From the NCBI GenBank assembly GCA_035275465.1, contig DATEMS010000047.1:12960-76959 (forward strand): a DNA stretch of 64,000 bases, given 5' to 3'. Origin of the DNA: Rhizomicrobium sp. Its GTDB lineage: Bacteria > Pseudomonadota > Alphaproteobacteria > Micropepsales > Micropepsaceae. The notes under the pieces are model-generated. The model did not search any database. It saw nothing but the letters and a program-made list of their open reading frames with translations, and was not told where the DNA came from. Shown here in pieces: positions 35,079-49,341 of the stretch; position 1 is the stretch's first letter; every line of letters starts with the position of its first letter. A program made the translations under genes and the position numbers.

Positions 35079-36179
35079 CTAGGCGGATGGTATCGCGCCG
35101 CGCAGCTCTTCCATCGCGGTCTGGCGGGTGAAGCTGTTGAAGATCGAATCCACCGTCACGATGTCGGAATTGCTCAGACTTGCGGACATGCTGCGCGCCT
35201 GGCGCGACAGGTTGTACACGGTGGTGAACACGGCGCGGTCGATACCGACGGCGCGGCAGGACAGGGCCACGATGCGCGCCCCGCTGGTATAGAAGCTGGT
35301 GCGGAAGGATGTCAGCGGAATCTCCAACAGCCGCGCGAAAGCCAGATCGAACAGATCCACCTGGCCTTGGCTAAGGACCCGCATCAGGAAGCCGGCTTTG
35401 AGCTGGCCGCTGCTGGCGAGTTTTTCCACCAATTTTGCCGCGCTGTCGGGCGGCGGATCGTGCGGACCGGCAGGCTGGCTATTGATCACTTGTGCGGCGG
35501 AGGCGAGCGCCGCATCGACGGTCTTGGGCGCGATCTTGTAGGTATCCTGGATGAAGGTCTTGAGCGCGTCGCAAACCCACTCGCACATCTTGTTGGCCAG
35601 TTGCGGGGGCAGGTCCGGACGGTGGACGAGCGGTTCCTGCAAGCCGGTCAAGGCGCGCGATTTTTCCACCAGCGTCGCGTAGCTGGCGTCGGAAATCTTG
35701 GCAGTGGCGTTGCGCACCAAGGCGGTCAGCACGGATTCGTGATTGGACTTGGCGAGCGCGTCGGTGACGGGAATTCCGATATGCGGCCGCGCCGCCACAG
35801 CCTCCTGATGCGCGATGCCGGCCTCGGCGATCAGCCTGAGCACGTCGGTTTCGGTGAGGAGGGGAGAATTCAGGATCAGGGGGCGAGCGACTTCGATGGA
35901 GTCGTCCACCAAAAGCAGGATCATGTCATGCGGCGCGGTGGTGTCTTCCGCCAAGCGCTGGGCCAGCGCAATGCGGATCGCCATTTCCACATCATGGGTG
36001 AGGCGGCGCAGAATTTCGCGCATCAACTCGCGTTCGCGCTCGTTGAGCCCCGCGCCCTGAATGCGATAAAGAGAGGCGACGGCGAGGTATATCTCCTCGC
36101 GGCTGGCGCCGGATTGTGGATTCATGGCGAGCTGAGCCAGGCGGCCCATGTCGCTCATATCGTGTGCGGTAAGCCCCAC
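35079..36179 (-). CDS. DUF2336 domain protein
   Basis: LAQRLAEDTTAPHDMILLLVDDSIEVARPLILNSPLLTETD...HQEAVAAR...LVRNATAKIS pattern. Confidence 0.82.
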   Translation of the reverse strand: MGLTAHDMSDMGRLAQLAMNPQSGASREEIYLAVASLYRIQGAGLNERERELMREILRRLTHDVEMAIRIALAQRLAEDTTAPHDMILLLVDDSIEVARPLILNSPLLTETDVLRLIAEAGIAHQEAVAARPHIGIPVTDALAKSNHESVLTALVRNATAKISDASYATLVEKSRALTGLQEPLVHRPDLPPQLANKMCEWVCDALKTFIQDTYKIAPKTVDAALASAAQVINSQPAGPHDPPPDSAAKLVEKLASSGQLKAGFLMRVLSQGQVDLFDLAFARLLEIPLTSFRTSFYTSGARIVALSCRAVGIDRAVFTTVYNLSRQARSMSASLSNSDIVTVDSIFNSFTRQTAMEELRGAIPSA

Positions 36180-36324: not shown

Positions 36325-36681
36325 TTAGCGGGCGGCCTTGGAAAGCCAAAGCCGTTTGAGGAAGCTCAGTTTGGGTTCGGTGAGTTCCGACAAAGGGTAG
36401 GTTTTCTTGAAAGTGACGCCCACTTCGGAACCGTCGTTCCAGATCACTTTTGCATCATAGGCGATGCGGTCTCGAACATTGATCAAATAGAAGTCGGTGG
36501 GGAATTGCTGGTTCTTGCCCATCACGATGCGCGCGCCGGTCTGCGATACGTTGCGGATGGTGCAATCGAAACTGCGCGCGCCATCGGCATAGGCGACGAT
36601 GCCCGCCAGCAGAACCCGCTTGCGCCGCGCCGGACGCCGCTCGGCCGGCGGCGGTACGTCATCGCCAAATTCGCTGCCCAA
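36325..36681 (-). CDS. Single-domain PilZ protein
   Basis: ERRPARRKR (RxxxR) and RNVSQTGA (D/NxSxxG) c-di-GMP motifs. Confidence 0.88.
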   Translation of the reverse strand: MGSEFGDDVPPPAERRPARRKRVLLAGIVAYADGARSFDCTIRNVSQTGARIVMGKNQQFPTDFYLINVRDRIAYDAKVIWNDGSEVGVTFKKTYPLSELTEPKLSFLKRLWLSKAAR

Positions 36682-38957: not shown

Positions 38958-39145
38958 GGGTGTTCCAAACGAGAGCACCCGTTGTCCTCAACACGTACAT
39001 CCATCTTGTGGCACTCTCCGCTACAGCTAATGTCGGAGTAAACGCGCGCTGTATGGGCTTGCAGAGTTTGTGCGATTGACGGTGGGCGTTGGCGGGCTGA
39101 AGTTTTGCATCGGTGGGGGTACAAGTGTCTGGTCAAGTCGTTGTC

Positions 39146-39739
39146 ATGGAGCGCGCGCGTATTGGGCGCCGCAAGCCGGAGAGTCTTGTGCGGTTGAAAC
39201 AGGCCGCACGCAAATTGTTCGTCGAGCGCGGATACGACGCCACAAGGCCGCAGGATATCGCGCGCGAAGCGGGATTGGGGCATGGCACTTTCTATCTCCA
39301 CTATCCCGACAAGCGCGCCTGTTTTCTGTCTTTTGTCGAGGATGCGCGGCTGGAGCTGGACGATCATGTGCGCGCCCATCGCTTGCAAGGCGCCAATCTG
39401 GAAACGCGCATCGCCACTACCTTGACCGCGATCTATGACTATGCCGATCGTAATCCGGGTGTGCTGCGCGCCGCCATGGCGGATGAGCGGATGATCGACG
39501 CCGACAGCGTCGCCACGCGGCCTTTGCTGGCGCAATGGGGCGCCGAATGGGCCGGCATGATCCGCAGCGCCGCCGACGGCGGCAGCGCTTGCACCTCTTA
39601 TGACGCCGACATTATCGGGCCAGCGATTGTAGGCGCCTTGCACCAAGCCGGACGCGAAAGCCATCGCTGCGGCCGCCAGCGCGAGGAACTGGTCAAGAAC
39701 ATGACCAGCTTTCTCACCAAGGCTTTGAAGCCGGATTGA
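39146..39739 (+). CDS. TetR/AcrR family regulator
   Basis: AARKLFVERGYDATRPQDIAREAGLGHGTFYLHYPDK HTH. Confidence 0.9.
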   Translation: MERARIGRRKPESLVRLKQAARKLFVERGYDATRPQDIAREAGLGHGTFYLHYPDKRACFLSFVEDARLELDDHVRAHRLQGANLETRIATTLTAIYDYADRNPGVLRAAMADERMIDADSVATRPLLAQWGAEWAGMIRSAADGGSACTSYDADIIGPAIVGALHQAGRESHRCGRQREELVKNMTSFLTKALKPD

Positions 39740-39805: not shown

Positions 39806-40339
39806 ATGAATCGCTTCTATAGAGGCGCGATGCGTTCCCTGGGAATTTCTTCCGCTATACTTCTTGCCGCCGCACCGGTTCAGGCCGCTTCTATCGGCGA
39901 GCCTGTCTTGCGCGATGGCGTTGCGATCGCGGCCAAGACCATGACTGGTTTGGAACTGGACCGGCTGCCCGCCGGCATGAGCCGCAGCGCCGATGCGGTG
40001 TTTCTGGTAGCGGATGTCCATGTCGCTAAAGATGGTGTGCATGGTTTTAGCGAAAACGCGTTCATTCCCTATTTGTCGATCAGCTATGCCCTGACCAAGG
40101 ACGGTGCGCCCACCTTCAAGAAGGCGGGTTTGCTTTATCCTGTCGCCGCCAAAAGCGGCCCGCACTATGCCGCCAGCGCCGACATGGCGGGCCCGGGCAT
40201 TTACCATCTCACTTATATCGTTTCGCCTCCCAGTTCGCGCGGCATGATACGCCAGACCGACAAGACGGGCGGCGTGCCGGACTGGTGGAAGCCGATCACC
40301 GTCCAATGGACCTTTACCTATGCGGGTAACGCCCAATGA
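39806..40339 (+). CDS. Periplasmic P19/Tp34/FtrA-fold protein (iron-transporter family), degenerate metal site
   Basis: Signal peptide; FIPYLSISY, GPHY, GPGIYHLTY, WWKPITVQWTFTY. Start could be 39830. Confidence 0.8.
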   Translation: MNRFYRGAMRSLGISSAILLAAAPVQAASIGEPVLRDGVAIAAKTMTGLELDRLPAGMSRSADAVFLVADVHVAKDGVHGFSENAFIPYLSISYALTKDGAPTFKKAGLLYPVAAKSGPHYAASADMAGPGIYHLTYIVSPPSSRGMIRQTDKTGGVPDWWKPITVQWTFTYAGNAQ

Positions 40340-40451
40340 AAAACCGGCGCTGGTGCGGATGCCGCCGCGGCAATGGAACTGCGGCAAAATAATTTCAAAT
40401 TGTGCCGATTCTGGAACCGGGTGGTAACGGGTGTCGCGCTAGCCTGTAACC

Positions 40452-42140
40452 ATGACAGACGTGGTGCGTAGCGAAACCTGTCCGGATGAGGGCATGCGGG
40501 GGCGGTTGTTGGGTACCGCTCAGGCCTTTGTGCTGAACGGGAACCAGGATTTTTCGCTGGCGTCCCTATGCCGTGAAGCCGGCGTGGACGGTTCCGTCTT
40601 TCGCAACCACTTCAGCAGCAAGGCCGAATTGATGGGGGCTCTGATGCGTGACCAAGCCCAGCACCAGGTCCAGCCCAAGGCTGTTGCTCAAACCATTCCG
40701 GAACCTCCCCGTCCAATCACGGTATTGGAACCCGGATCAGCCTCTAAGGCGGAGCTTGAGCCGTCCGTTTTCACACCCGACGCATGGCTCGAGCGCCGCC
40801 TTAGAGTCTTTGAACGCACCTTGAACGCCCTGGAAGCCAAAGCTGAGACCACGGCCCGGGAACAGGCCCGCGTTATCGCGCAGTTGGAGGAAAGACTGGC
40901 GGCACAGGGAACGGCAAGCGAGGGATTACCGGCGGTTGCGCAGGCTGCGATGGTGGCGCCGCAACCGGCGCCTCTCTTGCCGCCGACATTGCCGGCCGAG
41001 CCGTCTGCCGCGCCGGTTTTGGCGCCCAATGCCATGCACCAACCGGACGCCGCCCCGGAAGCGCCAGCGGAAGTATCAGCGGCAGTGTCGGTGAACCTGT
41101 TGGTGGAAGAGCCGCCCTTGGCGAGCGAGCCGCCGGGGCCACAGCCGTTTCGGGAAGCGTGGCAACAAGAACTCCCTTTGATGCCACTCGCGCAAGACAC
41201 CAAGGCGCCGGCCGCTCCGCCAGATGAGGGGCCTGCGGGGCAGATCCTGATTTCTGAAGGCAAGACTTGCGACGATACTCTTTCCGGTGATAGGCCCGTG
41301 CCCGAAAACAAGACCCAGGCGGAAACCCCCAGTCTGTTGCGAAACACCTATGACGGCGCTTTTACGACGGTGGAACCGCAGACGCGTTTGAACAATGCCG
41401 GGCGCGTGCGCTGGCTGGCGGGTGGCGCTTTGTCGTTGGTGATCTTGTTCCTTTGCTTGGGACTTTTCCTGGACCGGCGTTCCGGTCCCACCGCTATCGC
41501 GCGTCAGATTGACGGCGTTGCGCGTCGGCAAGCAGCCGATACCATCATGAGCCGTACAAAAGCCTTGGCCGACGCGGGCAATCCCCGCGCCCAGGCACGG
41601 CTGGCATTGGCGTATCTGCGCGGGCAGGGCTCCGCGGGAGACGCCAATGCCGCGTATCTTTGGAGTCTGTCGGCGGCGCGGGAAGGCAATCCTGTCGCCC
41701 AATATCTTTTGGGCGTTCAGTACCTGCATGGCGACCGCGTCAAGGCCGATCCGGCGGCGGCCGTGCAATGGTTTCAGCGCGCCGCGGACAAGGGCAATCT
41801 GAAGGCGATGCACAATCTTGCCATCGCCTATGCCAATGGCCAGGGCGTCGAAAAGGATGAAGCCAAGGCGGTGGAATGGTTCGCCAGGGCCGCCAAGCAT
41901 GGCTATGTGGATTCGGTTTTTAATCTCGCCGTGATGTATGAGCGTGGCGCCGGCGTGCCGCAGGATCCGCTGCAGGCCTTCAAATGGTACAGTATCGCGG
42001 CGATGGCGGGTGATGCTTCCGCCAAGGAACGGCTGGCCACCTTGCGCGGCGAGATGACGGCGGACGAGATCAAGCTGGCCAGCAACGCGGCGCAAGCCTT
42101 TGAACCGGCCCCCGCAGCGGAAGACGCCAACACGCTTTAA
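40452..42140 (+). CDS. TetR-like HTH + coiled coil + Pro-rich linker + TM + Sel1-repeat protein
   Basis: N-terminal LCREAGVDGSVFRNHFSSKAEL; TM around aa 320-340; about four Sel1 repeats (AQYLLG..Y..G, AMHNLAIAYANGQG, SVFNLAVMYERGAG). Confidence 0.82.
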   Translation: MTDVVRSETCPDEGMRGRLLGTAQAFVLNGNQDFSLASLCREAGVDGSVFRNHFSSKAELMGALMRDQAQHQVQPKAVAQTIPEPPRPITVLEPGSASKAELEPSVFTPDAWLERRLRVFERTLNALEAKAETTAREQARVIAQLEERLAAQGTASEGLPAVAQAAMVAPQPAPLLPPTLPAEPSAAPVLAPNAMHQPDAAPEAPAEVSAAVSVNLLVEEPPLASEPPGPQPFREAWQQELPLMPLAQDTKAPAAPPDEGPAGQILISEGKTCDDTLSGDRPVPENKTQAETPSLLRNTYDGAFTTVEPQTRLNNAGRVRWLAGGALSLVILFLCLGLFLDRRSGPTAIARQIDGVARRQAADTIMSRTKALADAGNPRAQARLALAYLRGQGSAGDANAAYLWSLSAAREGNPVAQYLLGVQYLHGDRVKADPAAAVQWFQRAADKGNLKAMHNLAIAYANGQGVEKDEAKAVEWFARAAKHGYVDSVFNLAVMYERGAGVPQDPLQAFKWYSIAAMAGDASAKERLATLRGEMTADEIKLASNAAQAFEPAPAAEDANTL

Positions 42141-43018
42141 TTTTTTGGTCCGGTATTTTCCGGATCGGGCGGGCGCCTCAGGCTGCCGTAATGGCTGGCC
42201 CAGACCTTGGTGAATTCGGCGCCCAGCAAGAAAATCTGTGCCGAGAAATAGACCCATATCAGAAGCACGATAATGCCGCCCGCCGCGCCATAAATATTGG
42301 CAGTGACGAAATTGACCAGGTAATAACCGATCAAACTCTGCCCCGCCTCGAACAAAAGCGCGGTGCCGAAGCTTGCCACCAACACGTCCCGCCACAACAA
42401 TTTCCTGTTGGGCAGCACCTTGTAGATGGCGGCAAACAGAAGAGCGACGGTCAGGAAGCCGATCCCGAAATTGATCGCCGGGATTGTGGCGTCATATATG
42501 TCGGTGTAACGGTCCAGCACTTCGCCCAACAGGCGGATCCCCGTGGCCATGACCATGGAGGCCAGCAACAACACCCCCAGCCCGATGACCAGGGTAAGGC
42601 TCAACACCCGGCCGCGCAGCAGTTGATAAAAATAAGATTCATGGCGGGGCGCCTTCCAGACCACATTCAGCGCGTCCTCTATTTCGGTGAAGAATCCAGA
42701 TGCGGTGACGATCAGGGCGATGACGCCGATCAGGCTGCTGGCCAGGGTATGGTCGCCGCTTCTGACATGCAGGATGGCGAGCTGCACCATATCGGCGCTT
42801 TCCGATGTCATGATCCGGGTCAACTGATCATGCACCGCGCTGCTGGCGGCATCCTGGCCCAGGCCCAGCGCGGCGATCGCGGTGGCGATAAACAGAACCG
42901 GCGCGATGGCGGTGACGGCATAAAAGGAAATAGCCGCACCGCGCGTCAGGGCGTTGTCATCGACAAAGGCTTCGACGCCTTCCTTGAACAGCATCCAGAC
43001 GGTCAGGCGGCGGCCCAC
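42137..43018 (-). CDS. YihY/virulence factor BrkB family membrane protein
   Basis: GAAISFY, IEDALNVVW, IYKVLP, YGAAGGIIVLLIWVYFSAQIFLLGAE. Confidence 0.92.
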   Translation of the reverse strand: MGRRLTVWMLFKEGVEAFVDDNALTRGAAISFYAVTAIAPVLFIATAIAALGLGQDAASSAVHDQLTRIMTSESADMVQLAILHVRSGDHTLASSLIGVIALIVTASGFFTEIEDALNVVWKAPRHESYFYQLLRGRVLSLTLVIGLGVLLLASMVMATGIRLLGEVLDRYTDIYDATIPAINFGIGFLTVALLFAAIYKVLPNRKLLWRDVLVASFGTALLFEAGQSLIGYYLVNFVTANIYGAAGGIIVLLIWVYFSAQIFLLGAEFTKVWASHYGSLRRPPDPENTGPKN

Positions 43019-46524: not shown

Positions 46525-49341
46525 TTGGATTCTGACGGCATGGCGGAGGACCGGGTTCGGGATATAGGGCGTTGGCGCAAAGGCCTGGCCTTTGCCCTAT
46601 TGCTGTGCTGGGCGTGGCCCGCATCGGCCACGGACTGGCCGCGCAACGATGTGCCATCCGATCCCGCGCTGCGGCAGGCTGTTCTGCCCAACGGCATGCG
46701 CTATGTCATCATGTCCAACCGCGTGCCGGCGGGCGCGCTATCCGTGCGCCTCAGCATGGGGGTGGGGGCGGTTCATGAGGCCGCCGATCAGCGCGGTTTT
46801 GCCCATTTTGTCGAGCATATGGCTTTCCGCGGATCGGAAAATTATCCCGATGGCGAAATCATGCGCAGTCTGGAGCGGTTGGGCCTGCGTTTCGGCGCCG
46901 ACGTCAATGCCACCACCGGGCAGTATCAGACCATCTATCGTTTTGACCTGCCCGGCGCCGACGCCAAAAGCACGGGAGAGGCGCTGGCCATTCTGCGGGA
47001 TATTGCCGGAAATCTGAATTTCGATTCCCCCGCGGTGGAAACCGAAGCCGGCGTGGTGATGTCGGAATCCGCCTTGCGGGGAACACCAGCCTTCCAGTCT
47101 TTGGCGCGGGAATTGGAGTTTCAGTTGCAGGACCCGCGTGCCAGCGCCATGGCGGGAAGCGTATCCGACATTGTCCAACATCCCCAGGCTGAACAATTGC
47201 AGCGCTTTTACAGGGCCTTTTACCGTCCCGAGCGCGCGGTACTGACCGTGGTGGGCGATGTGGATGCCGGTCCGATGGCGGCGGAAATCGCCGCGCGTTT
47301 TTCGGACTGGCACGGGGTGGGCGCGCGCGGCGAAGATCCGGTGTTCCAGGTGCCCCTGGGCCGGGGCTTGGAAGCGCGTGTTCATGTGGAGGGTGCGGCG
47401 CCCGCGCGTGTCGTGATGGCGTGGGTAAGGCCGCCGCTGCTGCATCCGGTGGACCGCGCGGGCTGGAAGCGCATGCATGTGAACGGCGTGGTCATGCAGT
47501 TGCTCAGCCGGCGGCTGGCGGCAATAGCAGCCTTGCCCGATCGTCCTTTTGTCGCGCCGCAGGCAGGGCGGCGCGAAGCGCGCCGCGCCGCGGAAATTTT
47601 TACGCTGTCGGCGGGCTATGAAGGCGGCAATTGGCAAAAAGCGGTTGCGGGTTTGACACAGACGCTGCGTACGTCGCGTGCGCCTTTCTCGCAAGCGGAA
47701 ATCGACTCTGTGGTTTTGGCGCAGAAAACCAGTTGGGCCGGCAGGGAAGTAGCCACTCGGACCACACCTGCTATCGCCACGGCGCTGGCGTCGGACGGCG
47801 GGGTGGAGGATATCAATGTCAGCCCCGCCCAGGCGCGCACGGCCGCCGACGAGGATTTTGCCGGGCTGACGCCCGCGATCATTGCGGCAGCCATGGACGA
47901 GATGTTCGGCGGCGATCCGTTGATTTTTGTTTCCAGCCGCGCGCCGATCGCGAATGCAGAGGCGGCGTTGCTGGATGCTTATCGGGCGCAGAACGGCCCG
48001 GCGGAGGATGCGGCGCCGCCAACCGTCCAAGCGGTCAAATGGCCCTATACTCGTTTCGGTTCGCCGGGCAGGGTGGTGGAAACCGGCGGGGCGCCCGATC
48101 TGGGCGTTACGGCTGTCAGTTTTTCCAACAATGTCCGCTTGCTGGTTCGGCCCTCCAAGCTGCGGGCCAACCAAGTGCTGGTCTCGGTCAAGCTGGGATA
48201 TGGCCGTTTGGGTTTGCCCAAGGATCGTCCCGCCGCGGCTTGGATTCTGGCCGGGCTGGTGCCCAGCGGATTGGGAGCCTTGTCCGCCAACGAGATGGTC
48301 TTAGCCTTGCCGGGGAAAAGCTATGGCGCGAACTTCGCCGTCAATGACGGCGCTTTCAGTTTCATCGGCAGCACCACCAGCCGCGATCTGGAAACTCAGC
48401 TCCAGATTTTTGCCGCCTATCTCAAAGATCCGGGGTTTCGCGGCCGGGATTTCGATCGCTTTAAGCAACAGGCGGTGCGGCGGCTGTCGTCGGACAACGC
48501 CACGCCGGCAGGCAAGATGGGACAACAAGCGTCCGAGATATGGCACAATGGGGATAAGCGTTGGGCCACGCCTTCGCCGCAGGATGTGCAGGCCGCCACG
48601 ATGGACGAGCTTTTGCAGTTAGCCCGGCCCATGCTGAACGATGCCCCTGTGGAGGTTGTGATCACCGGCGACACGACAGTGGAGGATGCAACGCGGTTGG
48701 TGGCGGCGACGCTGGGCGCGCTTCCCATGCGAAAAAAATATGAACTGGCGTTGACGCCGGACAACAATGTGGCCTTTCCGTCAGGGGCCGCCGAGACTGT
48801 CGCACTCAAGACGTCTGTCCGCTCCGCACAAGCGATGGCCAGCGTGGCCTGGGCCGCGCCCGGCTTTTTCGTCGACTTGAATGACGATGCGGCATTGCGA
48901 ATTTTAAGCGCGGTGCTGCGGGACAAATTGATCGAAGCGTTGCGGGGCACAGGTCTCAGCTATTTGGTGCAGGTCAACCAATCTTCTTCATCCGCCTTCG
49001 ACTATGGCACTATCGCGGCCAGCGCCACCATGCCGCCGGACAAGGTGCAATTGTTCTATGACGCGGTGGACCGGATCGTGGGTGAGTTAAGGGCCGGGAA
49101 GATTGGCGCCGACGCGTTTCAGCGCAGTCTGACGCCTGCTGTTGAAAGCCATCGCCGTGTCGGTCAGACCAATGACTATTGGCTGGGTGTGCTGGCCAAT
49201 GGCTGGGACGATTCGCCGAAATTCAACCGGGCGCGAACATATGGGGATATCCTGGCGAAGGTGACGCGGGAGGACGTGGCAGCGGCGGCGCGTCAATATC
49301 TGGTGCCGGAGCGGATGGTGCGGATCACGGCGGGGCCGTGA
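46525..49341 (+). CDS. Secreted M16 family zinc metallopeptidase (PqqL-like)
   Basis: LPNGMRY, GFAHFVEHMAFRGS (HxxEH), NATT, FYRPERAVLTVVGD; signal peptide. Confidence 0.92.
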   Translation: MDSDGMAEDRVRDIGRWRKGLAFALLLCWAWPASATDWPRNDVPSDPALRQAVLPNGMRYVIMSNRVPAGALSVRLSMGVGAVHEAADQRGFAHFVEHMAFRGSENYPDGEIMRSLERLGLRFGADVNATTGQYQTIYRFDLPGADAKSTGEALAILRDIAGNLNFDSPAVETEAGVVMSESALRGTPAFQSLARELEFQLQDPRASAMAGSVSDIVQHPQAEQLQRFYRAFYRPERAVLTVVGDVDAGPMAAEIAARFSDWHGVGARGEDPVFQVPLGRGLEARVHVEGAAPARVVMAWVRPPLLHPVDRAGWKRMHVNGVVMQLLSRRLAAIAALPDRPFVAPQAGRREARRAAEIFTLSAGYEGGNWQKAVAGLTQTLRTSRAPFSQAEIDSVVLAQKTSWAGREVATRTTPAIATALASDGGVEDINVSPAQARTAADEDFAGLTPAIIAAAMDEMFGGDPLIFVSSRAPIANAEAALLDAYRAQNGPAEDAAPPTVQAVKWPYTRFGSPGRVVETGGAPDLGVTAVSFSNNVRLLVRPSKLRANQVLVSVKLGYGRLGLPKDRPAAAWILAGLVPSGLGALSANEMVLALPGKSYGANFAVNDGAFSFIGSTTSRDLETQLQIFAAYLKDPGFRGRDFDRFKQQAVRRLSSDNATPAGKMGQQASEIWHNGDKRWATPSPQDVQAATMDELLQLARPMLNDAPVEVVITGDTTVEDATRLVAATLGALPMRKKYELALTPDNNVAFPSGAAETVALKTSVRSAQAMASVAWAAPGFFVDLNDDAALRILSAVLRDKLIEALRGTGLSYLVQVNQSSSSAFDYGTIAASATMPPDKVQLFYDAVDRIVGELRAGKIGADAFQRSLTPAVESHRRVGQTNDYWLGVLANGWDDSPKFNRARTYGDILAKVTREDVAAAARQYLVPERMVRITAGP

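What the first reader, a model, noticed from the sequence alone, without database searches (positions are those of the whole stretch)
40452..42140. TetR-type HTH joined through a membrane helix to periplasmic Sel1 repeats
Seen: aa 15-65 match the TetR N-terminal HTH (RLLGTA...FSLASLCREAGVDGSVFRNHFSSKAEL), but there is no TetR ligand domain. Instead come a coiled coil (DAWLERRLRVFER...), a roughly 200-aa Pro/Ala/Glu-rich spacer, one TM and about four Sel1 repeats. Known: ToxR/CadC-type transmembrane regulators use OmpR-type wHTH, and PodJ has coiled coil-TM-Sel1 without an HTH. Inference: an undescribed one-component transmembrane regulator, or a chromosome-to-pole tether, sensing a periplasmic partner. 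The upstream degenerate P19 protein is a candidate partner.
Basis: partly seen in the sequence, partly recalled or inferred. Interest (0 to 1): 0.72.

Follow-up and report, generated by a model that had tools for sequence, protein, structure and literature searches.

The report
Membrane-anchored TetR-head, Sel1-tail protein family
A soil Alphaproteobacterium (Rhizomicrobium) encodes a real, conserved and expressed single-pass membrane protein that puts a TetR-type DNA-binding head in the cytoplasm and a PodJ-like Sel1 repeat domain in the periplasm, a combination nobody has described or tested, so its function is still inferred.

Summary
Window 40452-42140(+) encodes a 562-aa protein with these parts: a TetR-type helix-turn-helix (aa 11-72), a flexible linker, one long helix carrying a near-invariant motif (aa 107-155), about 160 aa of Pro/Ala/Glu-rich disorder, one TM helix (aa 316-344, N-terminus inside) and a periplasmic Sel1 solenoid (aa 365-549).

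TetR_N is below Pfam's threshold in this copy (20.6 vs 24 bits). It is secure for the family: 56 of 72 orthologues hit it, distant relatives score 41-54 bits, and profile and fold searches return only TetR regulators.

More than 70 independent assemblies carry the same single ORF, all folded modules are under purifying selection, and metatranscriptome contigs cover the gene.

The family is confined to Rhizomicrobium/Micropepsales-like Alphaproteobacteria (at least 658 proteins) and carries only automatic names. Its chassis resembles the polarity scaffold PodJ, but it lacks PodJ's peptidoglycan-binding domain and its N-terminal coiled coils.

The best reading is a membrane-anchored DNA-binding regulator or tether dimerised by a coiled coil. 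That is inference. One subclade lost the HTH, this copy lost three conserved basic HTH residues, and no operator was found. P19 as a partner is not supported.

The parts
40398..40427 (+). Conserved 30-nt non-coding element (AATTGTGCCGATTCTGGAACCGGGTGGTAA) 25 nt upstream of the ATG. Probably the gene's own promoter or leader region.
   Evidence: Found in about 50 orthologous loci whatever gene lies upstream. No Rfam match. Not called by the sigma-70 scan. Dyad symmetry is no better than shuffles.
40452..42140 (+). Complete CDS, 562 aa plus stop. GTG 40461 is an equally plausible start; both lie upstream of the HTH.
   Evidence: the family N-termini align to this start. Overall dN/dS vs L002 is 0.30. 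Metatranscriptome contigs cover the gene.
40482..40667 (+). TetR-type DNA-binding domain (helices a1-a4, aa 11-72). Recognition helix aa 47-53.
   Evidence: Pfam TetR_N 20.6 bits. Family census 56/72. PDB profile hits are TetR only. AF2 model plus Foldseek. Residue conservation. dN/dS 0.18.
40668..40769 (+). Flexible Pro-rich linker 1 (aa 73-106), variable in length across the family.
   Evidence: pLDDT below 50. Its length varies widely between members, from almost no linker to several tens of residues longer (L012, L015), and it shows poor conservation.
40770..40916 (+). Long helix / coiled coil (aa 107-155) starting with the near-invariant motif PDAWLERRLRVFER(A/T)L.
   Evidence: pLDDT above 90, single helix. 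Heptad register. Motif conservation, including in a pattern-independent search. dN/dS 0.15.
40917..41396 (+). Acidic Pro/Ala/Glu-rich intrinsically disordered region (aa 156-315). In this lineage its end has lost the family's juxtamembrane helix.
   Evidence: pLDDT about 40. Composition. dN/dS 0.51. Juxtamembrane motif lost without a frameshift.
41397..41483 (+). Single transmembrane helix (aa 316-344), signal-anchor, N-terminus in / C-terminus out.
   Evidence: Hydropathy 2.57. Helix in the model. Conserved sequence RxRWLAxGALSLVxLFLCxGL. Positive-inside rule 3.9 vs 1.0.
41484..42137 (+). Periplasmic part: short linker (aa 345-364), Sel1 solenoid of about five hairpins (aa 365-549), and a conserved C-terminal tail ending ...ANTL.
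   Evidence: Pfam Sel1 E=1e-36. PDB Sel1 proteins up to E=2e-71. pLDDT about 97. hhalign to the PodJ periplasmic domain: probability 99.9, 40% identity over 157 columns. dN/dS 0.12.

Best explanation
SHOWN: this is a member of a conserved family of bitopic inner-membrane proteins in Rhizomicrobium/Micropepsales-type Alphaproteobacteria. From N- to C-terminus it has:
- a TetR-type three-helix DNA-binding head with no TetR ligand/dimerisation domain;
- a flexible linker;
- a roughly 45-residue helix with heptad character that begins with a near-invariant W-L-E-R-R-L-R-V-F-E-R motif;
- a long acidic Pro-rich disordered spacer;
- in most members, a juxtamembrane helix;
- one TM helix with the N-terminus inside;
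- a periplasmic Sel1 solenoid homologous to the periplasmic repeat domain of PodJ.

INFERRED mechanism:
- The coiled coil replaces the missing TetR C-domain as the oligomerisation device, so two or more loosely tethered HTH heads can bind DNA with avidity while the protein stays in the membrane.
- The 160-aa disordered spacer gives the heads reach into the nucleoid.
- The periplasmic Sel1 domain binds an envelope or periplasmic protein.
- The molecule therefore couples an envelope-side interaction, or a position in the envelope, to DNA binding. That would make it either a ToxR/CadC-style membrane-integrated one-component regulator or a DNA-envelope tether on a PodJ-like chassis.

The window's own copy is a divergent but still selected member. 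It keeps R51, H53 and K57 of the recognition region but has Q24, N29 and G47 where the family has Arg/Lys, and it has lost the juxtamembrane helix. Its DNA affinity or specificity may differ from the family norm.
For: Architecture and reality:
-.
- More than 70 independent full-length ORFs.
- Census: Sel1 71/72, TetR_N 56/72.
- At least 658 database members at E<=1e-30.
- About 109 clusters at 50% identity carry the N-terminal module.

TetR head:
-.
- Basic residues at DNA-facing positions are conserved family-wide: R24 47/56, R/K47 51/56, R51 51/56, K/R57 56/56.
- The HTH is as conserved as the other folded modules and is under purifying selection, dN/dS 0.18.

Topology: positive-inside rule across 64 homologues.

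Oligomerising helix.

PodJ-type periplasmic module: hhalign probability 99.9. The juxtamembrane motif finds its best match at the equivalent PodJ position (weak, E=0.002-0.006).

Expression: metatranscriptome contigs over the HTH, IDR and Sel1 parts.

Precedents that membrane-integrated regulators bind DNA while tethered: CadC and ToxR (titles and abstracts of PMC6320335 and PMC10629549).
Against: - No DNA target is known, and the conserved upstream element has no dyad symmetry above chance.
- One orthologous subclade (L060/61/63/65/67) deleted the HTH cleanly yet kept everything else. The HTH is therefore accessory to a core function that lies in the motif helix, TM and Sel1 parts.
- An isolated TetR_N head on a floppy linker is not the geometry by which TetR dimers normally read palindromes (knowledge of TetR structures).
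- This copy's HTH has lost three conserved basic residues and scores below Pfam's threshold.
- The every-position conservation of the motif helix suggests a specific partner, not just dimerisation.
- Genomic context is housekeeping/envelope and gives no functional pointer.
- The Sel1 similarity to PodJ is not clearly greater per residue than to generic Sel1 proteins in the PDB.
Confidence: 0.45

Rival explanations
1. It is a PodJ-like envelope or polar scaffold. The core function is protein scaffolding, and the TetR-like head is a minor add-on used for protein-protein contact or for loose, non-specific nucleoid contact, not for gene regulation. In this reading the motif helix binds a cytoplasmic partner, the acidic IDR acts as a spacer or client-binding region, and the Sel1 domain binds an envelope structure, possibly at a pole.
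For: - The chassis follows PodJ's order: coiled coil, acidic Pro-rich IDR, juxtamembrane helix, TM, Sel1.
- PodJ's layout, and the fact that its periplasmic part alone can reach the pole, come from PMC8980812 and PMC10127582.
- JGI's automatic annotation labels several members 'localization factor PodJL'.
- Longer relatives (P0400, 771 aa; P0395) have several hundred residues of extra coiled coil, closer to PodJ.
- An HTH-less subclade exists.
- The motif helix is conserved at all positions, as expected for a partner-binding surface.
Against: - There is no detectable homology to PodJ's cytoplasmic coiled coils or N-terminal domain.
- There is no PG_binding_1 domain.
- The Sel1 similarity is not demonstrably PodJ-specific.
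- The HTH keeps DNA-facing basic residues and is under purifying selection in most of the family, which is unexpected for a vestige.
- No polarity, pilus or cell-cycle genes lie nearby.
Confidence: 0.3
2. It is a latent transcription factor released by regulated proteolysis. As with PodJ, which is processed from its long to its short form by dedicated proteases, a periplasmic cue would trigger cleavage. Intramembrane or juxtamembrane cleavage would then free the HTH-coiled-coil dimer to act as a soluble regulator.
For: - PodJ is proteolysed once per cell cycle from PodJL to PodJS and then degraded (PMC8980812).
- The family shares PodJ's periplasmic module and possibly its juxtamembrane segment.
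- A long disordered, protease-accessible spacer separates the HTH-coiled coil from the membrane.
Against: - There is no direct evidence. No protease gene is a conserved neighbour: the M16 peptidase at 46525 in the window is not syntenic by my test.
- The window lineage has lost the juxtamembrane motif.
- ToxR/CadC precedents act without release.
Confidence: 0.12
3. It is a dedicated regulator or sensor of the neighbouring Ftr (P19/FtrA-FtrB-FtrC) iron-uptake system. The Sel1 domain would bind periplasmic FtrA/P19 or FtrB, and the HTH would control ftr transcription.
For: - 48 of 73 loci with enough flank have Ftr genes just upstream on the same strand. These include very distant relatives in which the other synteny has decayed.
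- P19 is periplasmic, as is the Sel1 domain.
Against: - 25 of 73 loci have no Ftr gene upstream.
- In L072 and L080 an opposite-strand beta-lactamase-family gene intervenes, and in other loci unrelated genes do.
- The target has its own conserved upstream element.
- The window lineage lost FtrB and FtrC and its P19 is degenerating, yet the target remains under purifying selection.
- A canonical TetR regulator already sits at the head of the cluster.
Confidence: 0.1
4. It is an artefact: a mis-assembled or mis-called fusion of a small TetR-like gene with a Sel1 gene, or a chance HTH-like match.
For: The TetR_N score in this copy is below Pfam's gathering threshold.
Against: - More than 70 independent assemblies carry the same uninterrupted ORF.
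- An independent strain's DNA contig spans 40587-42113.
- Family-level TetR_N support is strong.
- All folded modules are under purifying selection.
Confidence: 0.01

Closest known systems
PodJ (localization factor PodJL/PodJS of Caulobacter crescentus and relatives)
   Same: - Alphaproteobacterial bitopic inner-membrane protein with the same order of parts: cytoplasmic coiled coil, acidic Pro-rich disordered region, juxtamembrane Ala/Arg-rich helix, a single TM (N-terminus in), and periplasmic Sel1/TPR repeats.
- The periplasmic repeat domain and its C-terminal tail are homologous (hhalign probability 99.9, 40% identity over 157 columns).
- The juxtamembrane motif aligns at the equivalent position, but weakly.
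   Different: - No C-terminal peptidoglycan-binding domain.
- One short coiled coil instead of six, with no sequence homology to PodJ's cytoplasmic region or its N-terminal domain.
- About 450-560 aa instead of about 820-975 aa.
- A TetR-type HTH sits at the tip, which PodJ lacks.
- Polar localisation and PleC/PopZ recruitment are untested.
ToxR / CadC / TcpP-type membrane-integrated one-component regulators
   Same: A cytoplasmic N-terminal DNA-binding domain, a flexible or disordered linker, a single TM and a periplasmic domain. These proteins bind DNA while remaining in the membrane (PMC6320335 and PMC10629549, listed).
   Different: - The DNA-binding domain is an OmpR-type winged helix, not TetR-type.
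- The periplasmic domains are unrelated folds, not Sel1.
- They have no coiled coil and much shorter linkers.
- There is no homology, only analogy of layout.
TetR/AcrR family regulators (TFRs)
   Same: The N-terminal helix-turn-helix domain: Pfam TetR_N, about 25-35% identity and 1.1-2.6 A rmsd to many TFR structures.
   Different: - The whole ligand-binding/dimerisation domain (helices a4-a9) is absent. It is replaced by a linker, a coiled coil, an IDR, a TM and Sel1.
- The protein is membrane-anchored.
- No palindromic operator was identified.
Periplasmic Sel1-repeat signalling and scaffold proteins (ExoR, MotX, AlgK, MerG)
   Same: A periplasmic Sel1 solenoid used for protein-protein interaction. 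There are weak NCBIfam similarities to MerG, AlgK, MotX and ExoR (E=4e-21 to 4e-10, all far below their cut-offs).
   Different: Those are soluble or lipoprotein periplasmic proteins with no cytoplasmic module. None reaches the family-specific score, so this protein is not a member of any of them.

Membership tests
TetR/AcrR family transcription regulators | N-terminal three-helix HTH matching TetR_N (PF00440) | tested here: met
   This copy scores 20.6 bits, below the gathering cut-off of 24. However, 56/72 orthologues match (best E=2.7e-11), distant relatives score 41-54 bits, and profile-vs-PDB and Foldseek searches return only TetR regulators.
TetR/AcrR family transcription regulators | C-terminal all-helical ligand-binding and dimerisation domain (a4-a9) | tested here: not met
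   No TetR_C family hit even at E<=1. After a4 the model shows disorder, then one long helix, then 160 aa of disorder.
TetR/AcrR family transcription regulators | Dimer binding to a palindromic operator, usually near its own gene | tested here: inconclusive
   A conserved upstream element exists, but its dyad symmetry is no better than shuffled controls. DNA binding itself cannot be tested with these tools.
PodJ polarity scaffold | Periplasmic Sel1/TPR repeat domain after a single TM, with the N-terminus cytoplasmic | tested here: met
   hhalign of A4 vs the PodJ alignment A5: probability 99.9, E=4e-35. Topology by the positive-inside rule. Caveat: the similarity is not clearly greater than to generic Sel1 proteins.
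PodJ polarity scaffold | C-terminal peptidoglycan-binding domain (PG_binding_1) | tested here: not met
   Most PodJ-type proteins tested have it (P0232, P0179, P0203, P0246, P0223), although two retrieved with them, P0226 (named PodJS by its source) and P0205, show Sel1 only. The window protein ends 13 aa after the Sel1 cap, and Pfam finds no PG-binding domain. None was found in the 72 family members.
PodJ polarity scaffold | Extended N-terminal coiled-coil region (CC1-6) homologous to PodJ's, plus the PodJ N-terminal domain | tested here: not met
   Profile-profile comparison of the N-terminal and coiled-coil regions gives E about 0.01, probability 3-5%. Only one helix of about 45 aa is present.
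PodJ polarity scaffold | Intrinsically disordered acidic region between the coiled coils and the TM | tested here: met
   aa 154-315 have pLDDT about 40. The region is P/A/E-rich with net charge -11. This is a shared property of layout, not sequence homology.
PodJ polarity scaffold | Polar localisation and recruitment of PleC/PopZ; processing from PodJL to PodJS | not testable with these tools
   These features are defined experimentally (PMC8980812; PMC10127582).
ToxR/CadC-type membrane-integrated one-component regulators | OmpR-type winged-helix DNA-binding domain at the cytoplasmic N-terminus | tested here: not met
   The N-terminal domain is TetR-type. There is no Trans_reg_C hit.
ToxR/CadC-type membrane-integrated one-component regulators | Single TM linking a cytoplasmic DNA-binding domain to a periplasmic domain | tested here: met
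Sel1-like repeat (SLR) proteins | Tandem Sel1 repeats above the Pfam PF08238 threshold | tested here: met
   124.5 bits vs a cut-off of 30.7, 4 repeats. PDB SLR proteins match up to E=2e-71.

The most novel reading that the evidence does not exclude
This would be the first TetR-type membrane-integrated DNA-binding protein. In this reading, a family in Micropepsales binds specific chromosomal sites through coiled-coil-paired TetR heads while it remains anchored in the inner membrane by a PodJ-type periplasmic Sel1 module. Gene expression or chromosome position would thus be wired directly to an envelope, possibly polar, landmark. The near-invariant WLERRLRVFER helix would be the docking site for a still unknown conserved partner.
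Probability: 0.3. Interest if true: 0.75.

Novelty: new variant of a known kind. Interest (0 to 1): 0.55.

Why it matters
Membrane-integrated DNA-binding proteins are rare, and the characterised examples I compared with here (ToxR, CadC) use an OmpR-type winged helix. A TetR head with its ligand domain replaced by a coiled coil and a transmembrane PodJ-like chassis would be a second, independent solution to the same problem. It would also show that TetR DNA-binding domains can work outside the canonical TetR dimer.

The family links two well-studied subjects, TetR regulators and the PodJ polarity scaffold, in an abundant but little-studied order of soil and rhizosphere Alphaproteobacteria. The record title for locus L028 (Rhizobiales bacterium dw_265) does not carry a MAG label, so it may come from an isolate, and two Rhizomicrobium species are named in the NCBI taxonomy. 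That would make experiments feasible.

Practically, hundreds of database entries now called 'TPR repeat protein', 'AcrR family regulator', 'PodJL' or 'hypothetical' are one family and could be annotated consistently.

Tried and rejected
1. Operator hunt. The conserved upstream element looked partly palindromic (CGATTC-TG-GAACCG). The HTH-less clade lacks that core, which suggested an autoregulatory operator. Across 51 loci the best 6+6 dyad averaged 4.1/6 vs about 4.0/6 in shuffles, so I rejected the idea.

2. Promoter type of that element. The sigma-54 and EcfG/ECF readings were inspected by eye and dropped, because the GG of a -24 box is not conserved and the spacing to CGTT is wrong. The sigma-70 scan does not call it. 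Rfam finds nothing.

3. Frameshift as the cause of the lost juxtamembrane motif in the window lineage. The other two frames carry stops and no motif.

4. PodJ's N-terminal domain as a ribbon-helix-helix. This would have made PodJ and this family parallel 'DNA-binding-fold-tipped' scaffolds. There is no PDB or Pfam support. I had no structure-prediction jobs left to test it by fold.

5. Homology of the motif helix or HTH to PodJ's cytoplasmic region. Not significant.

6. Ftr/P19 operon coupling. This looks like regional synteny only.

The shallower alignment A1 was used instead.

8. Literature searches for TetR+Sel1, for membrane-anchored TetR and for membrane-tethered TetR-like proteins returned nothing relevant.

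9. Neighbourhood survey for pilus, flagellar or cell-cycle genes: none found.
Full report
1. THE OBSERVATION

Window 40452-42140(+) is an uninterrupted 562-aa ORF with an in-frame stop 9 nt upstream.

Pfam finds four Sel1 repeats (E=1e-36). It also finds a near full-length TetR_N match (aa 22-64 = model positions 5-47 of 47) that scores only 20.6 bits against a gathering cut-off of 24. No TetR C-terminal family appears, even at E<=1. NCBIfam gives only sub-threshold similarities: MerG, AlgK, MotX and ExoR for the Sel1 part, and FasR and BetI for the HTH.

Hydropathy shows one strong TM segment around aa 320-340. Candidate starts ATG 40452, GTG 40461 and ATG 40494 all precede the HTH.

2. IS THE TetR HEAD REAL?

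The N-terminal 158 aa retrieved 22 homologues, mostly contig-end fragments, that share the HTH and an invariant PDAWLERRLRVFERAL motif.

A profile of these sequences hits only TetR-family structures in the PDB, always over their N-terminal DNA-binding domain (best 3jsj, E=7e-7; 109 hits at E<=1).

AlphaFold2 on this alignment gives four helices (aa 11-28, 36-43, 47-53, 57-71) at pLDDT above 90, a disordered stretch at aa 73-103, and one long helix at aa 109-155. Foldseek against the PDB returns TetR regulators for all 50 top hits. They align over about 60 residues at 1.1-2.6 A rmsd. The E-values are modest (0.014-0.15) because the domain is small.

Of 72 full-length orthologues, 56 hit TetR_N (best E=2.7e-11). 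Longer, more distant relatives found by the exhaustive search score 41-54 bits. The TetR_N assignment is therefore secure for the family. This copy is simply a weak-scoring member.

3. IS IT ONE GENE?

A scan of one genome per GTDB species returned 80 loci. Nearly all are MAGs labelled Rhizomicrobium, Micropepsales or 'Alphaproteobacteria', and two are 93-94% identical to the window. The window is therefore from a Rhizomicrobium-like organism (order Micropepsales).

At practically every locus the match lies in a single ORF of 400-660 aa. Each has one TM followed by about 240 aa of Sel1 domain.

A profile search of the 5.8-billion-protein set found at least 658 proteins at E<=1e-30, and the top 120 are all full-length. 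Public runs that hold the sequence are rhizosphere and plant metagenomes. An independent strain's DNA contig spans 40587-42113. An assembly fusion is excluded.

4. IS IT EXPRESSED AND UNDER SELECTION?

Contigs from two rhizosphere metatranscriptomes cover 40401-40737 (5' end and HTH), 41105-41319 (IDR), 41680-41859 (Sel1) and the 3' end. The caveat is that such libraries can contain DNA.

Against the L002 orthologue, dN/dS is 0.18 for the HTH, 0.15 for the coiled coil, 0.14 for the TM, 0.12 for the periplasmic part and 0.51 for the disordered region. The counts are small.

5. ANATOMY OF THE WHOLE PROTEIN

The full-length AF2 model (64-sequence alignment) gives:
- HTH, aa 11-72;
- disorder;
- a long helix, aa 111-153;
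- disorder, aa 154-315 (pLDDT about 40);
- a TM helix, aa 316-344;
- a short linker;
- a Sel1 solenoid of about five hairpins plus a cap, aa 365-549 (pLDDT about 97).

Family conservation follows the same pattern. The mean top-residue frequency is 0.68 for the HTH, 0.80 for the motif helix, 0.21 for the IDR, 0.77 for the TM and 0.79 for Sel1.

The positive-inside rule across 64 homologues (K+R 3.9 in the 15 residues before the TM vs 1.0 after) puts the N-terminus in the cytoplasm and Sel1 in the periplasm. The helix at aa 109-155 has a heptad register with 7 of 14 a/d positions L/I/V/M/F.

The motif at its start is conserved at every position. Exact ERRLRVFER occurs in 119 of 120 profile-search hits. 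In the pattern-independent exhaustive search there are 31 exact copies plus at least 18 close variants among 76 proteins of 300 aa or more. The 80 loci were retrieved with this very pattern, so only searches count as unbiased. No Pfam or NCBIfam model covers the motif.

6. WHAT IS PARTICULAR ABOUT THIS COPY?

The family conserves basic residues at HTH positions that face DNA in TetR-DNA complexes. (The mapping comes from the alignment to 3jsj; the contact roles come from my knowledge of the TetR and QacR complexes.) The counts are R24 47/56, R29 36/56, R/K47 at the start of the recognition helix 51/56, R51 51/56, H53 32/56 and K/R57 56/56. The window protein keeps R51, H53 and K57 but has Q24, N29 and G47.

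The window/L002 lineage has also replaced the family's juxtamembrane helix (SKEEMADVLQxARxxARAAA) with unrelated sequence, and no frameshift explains this.

It is a divergent but still constrained member.

7. VARIATION IN THE FAMILY

A subclade at the same syntenic position (L060, L061, L063, L065, L067) lacks the HTH cleanly. These genes start about 40 aa before the motif, no HTH remnant exists in any frame, and they keep the upstream element, motif helix, TM and Sel1. The HTH is therefore accessory to a conserved core.

Conversely, longer relatives (P0400 at 771 aa, P0358, P0363, P0385, P0392, P0395) combine a strong TetR_N with the same motif, several hundred residues of extra coiled coil, a juxtamembrane (S/A)ARRAA helix, a TM and Sel1.

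All names attached to any member are automatic and inconsistent: TPR repeat protein, SEL1-like repeat protein, localization factor PodJL, AcrR/TetR family regulator, hypothetical.

8. RELATION TO PodJ

I used an approximate recollection of Caulobacter PodJ only as bait. The database returned real PodJ-type proteins from Caulobacter, Phenylobacterium and relatives. Most of the full-length examples I tested are about 820-830 aa and carry Sel1 plus PG_binding_1.

The window protein is 43% identical to one of them over aa 416-552. Profile-profile comparison aligns 157 columns of Sel1 plus the C-terminal tail at 40% identity, probability 99.9.

The family's juxtamembrane profile, scanned over the whole 590-aa cytoplasmic part of PodJ, finds its best match about 40 aa before PodJ's TM. 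That is the equivalent position, but the match is weak (E=0.002-0.006). The HTH, linker and motif helix have no counterpart in PodJ. No family member has PG_binding_1.

Generic Sel1 proteins in the PDB score about as well per residue as PodJ does. A specifically PodJ-derived origin of the periplasmic module is therefore plausible but not proven.

According to PMC8980812, PodJ has six cytoplasmic coiled coils, an IDR, a TM, a periplasmic TPR domain and a PG-binding domain. Its cytoplasmic and periplasmic parts can each reach the pole, and it is processed from PodJL to PodJS. PMC10127582 gives the same layout.

9. CONTEXT

Synteny across the clade runs DUF2336 - GlpK - TetR - FtrA(P19) - FtrB - FtrC - target - YihY/BrkB (convergent) - AsmA.

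Of 73 loci with enough flank, 48 have Ftr genes just upstream, including very distant relatives, and 25 have none. In some loci an opposite-strand beta-lactamase-family gene or unrelated genes intervene. The window lineage has lost FtrB and FtrC altogether.

A 30-nt element (window 40398-40427) is conserved immediately upstream of the target in about 50 loci, whatever gene precedes it. It has no Rfam match, is not called as a sigma-70 promoter and has no dyad symmetry beyond chance. I read it as the gene's own promoter or leader.

The rest of the window is housekeeping and envelope genes: a desaturase, an M16 peptidase, LemA/TPM, MacB-type efflux systems, SLT, MsrA and a CtaG-like gene.

10. 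INTERPRETATION

Shown: a conserved, expressed, selected bitopic membrane protein with a TetR-type head inside and a PodJ-like Sel1 domain outside.

Inferred: the coiled coil substitutes for the missing TetR dimerisation domain. The acidic disordered spacer lets the heads reach DNA from the membrane. The Sel1 domain binds an envelope partner. The protein thus links an envelope interaction or location to DNA binding, as ToxR and CadC do with a different DNA-binding fold.

I put this at about 0.45. A mainly scaffolding, PodJ-like role with an accessory head is at about 0.3, a proteolytically released factor at about 0.12, and an Ftr-dedicated sensor at about 0.1. These readings overlap in part.

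The main arguments against a primary DNA-binding role are the HTH-less subclade, the floppy tether, the absence of an identifiable operator, and this copy's loss of basic residues.

11. NOVELTY AND VERDICT

I found no description of a TetR_N-TM-Sel1 protein, and database names are inconsistent. It is built from known modules on a known kind of chassis, so I rate it a new variant of a known kind.

It is interesting (0.55) because it would be an independent, TetR-based version of the membrane-integrated regulator, and because it bridges TetR and PodJ biology. Its function is still untested, and it is confined to one little-studied order.

Noticed in passing
window 39806-40339 (+): The P19/FtrA homologue is a full-length match to FetP/P19 structures (E=4e-29). 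It is an orphan: FtrB (cupredoxin) and FtrC (FTR1 permease), present in most related loci, are absent from the whole 64-kb window. It has Gln where FetP and the L049 orthologue have a His (GMHRHTD / GFIRHVD vs GMIRQTD). It is the fastest-evolving gene in the neighbourhood (88.7% identity to L002 vs 95-96% for neighbours). It is probably losing its iron-uptake role.
   Followed up: partly
window 40398-40427 (+): A conserved 30-nt non-coding element, AATTG(C/T)GCCGATTCTGGAACCGGGTGGTAA, lies just upstream of the target in about 50 orthologous loci regardless of the upstream gene. It has no Rfam match, no sigma-70 call and no significant dyad symmetry. Its promoter type is unknown.
   Followed up: partly
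L060:3377-4585, L061:5854-7065, L063:5875-7089, L065:3746-4927, L067:5854-7059: Orthologues at the same syntenic position have cleanly lost the TetR-type HTH but keep the upstream element, the WLERRLRVFER helix, the TM and Sel1.
   Followed up: yes
window 41290-41396 (aa ~281-315) and L002: This lineage has replaced the family-wide juxtamembrane helix (SKEEMADVLQxARxxARAAA) with unrelated sequence. No frameshift explains it. The same lineage also lost three conserved basic HTH residues.
   Followed up: yes
window 40776-40823 (aa 109-124): The motif PDAWLERRLRVFER(A/T)L is conserved at every position across a family whose members are otherwise only 30-55% identical. That is more than a coiled coil needs. 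It is covered by no Pfam or NCBIfam model, and its partner is unknown.
   Followed up: partly
window 35079-36179 (-) and 36325-36681 (-): A DUF2336 protein lies next to a small (118-aa) PilZ-domain protein. DUF2336 is syntenic with the target region in 31 of 80 loci. This may be a c-di-GMP-related pair of unknown function.
   Followed up: no
window 39113-39739 (+): A canonical TetR regulator (TetR_N E=3e-14 plus a weak TetR_C_32 match) heads the Ftr cluster and is syntenic in 35 of 80 loci. It is the more obvious candidate regulator of the ftr genes.
   Followed up: no
window 42137-42140: The target's stop codon overlaps by 4 nt the stop of the convergent YihY/BrkB-family gene (42137-43018, minus strand). 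This convergent pair is the most persistent neighbour relationship (48 of 80 loci).
   Followed up: no
L039 and L046 (same MAG, JAZJZY01): One genome carries two family members. One is in the conserved syntenic context and the other is elsewhere, so paralogues exist.
   Followed up: no
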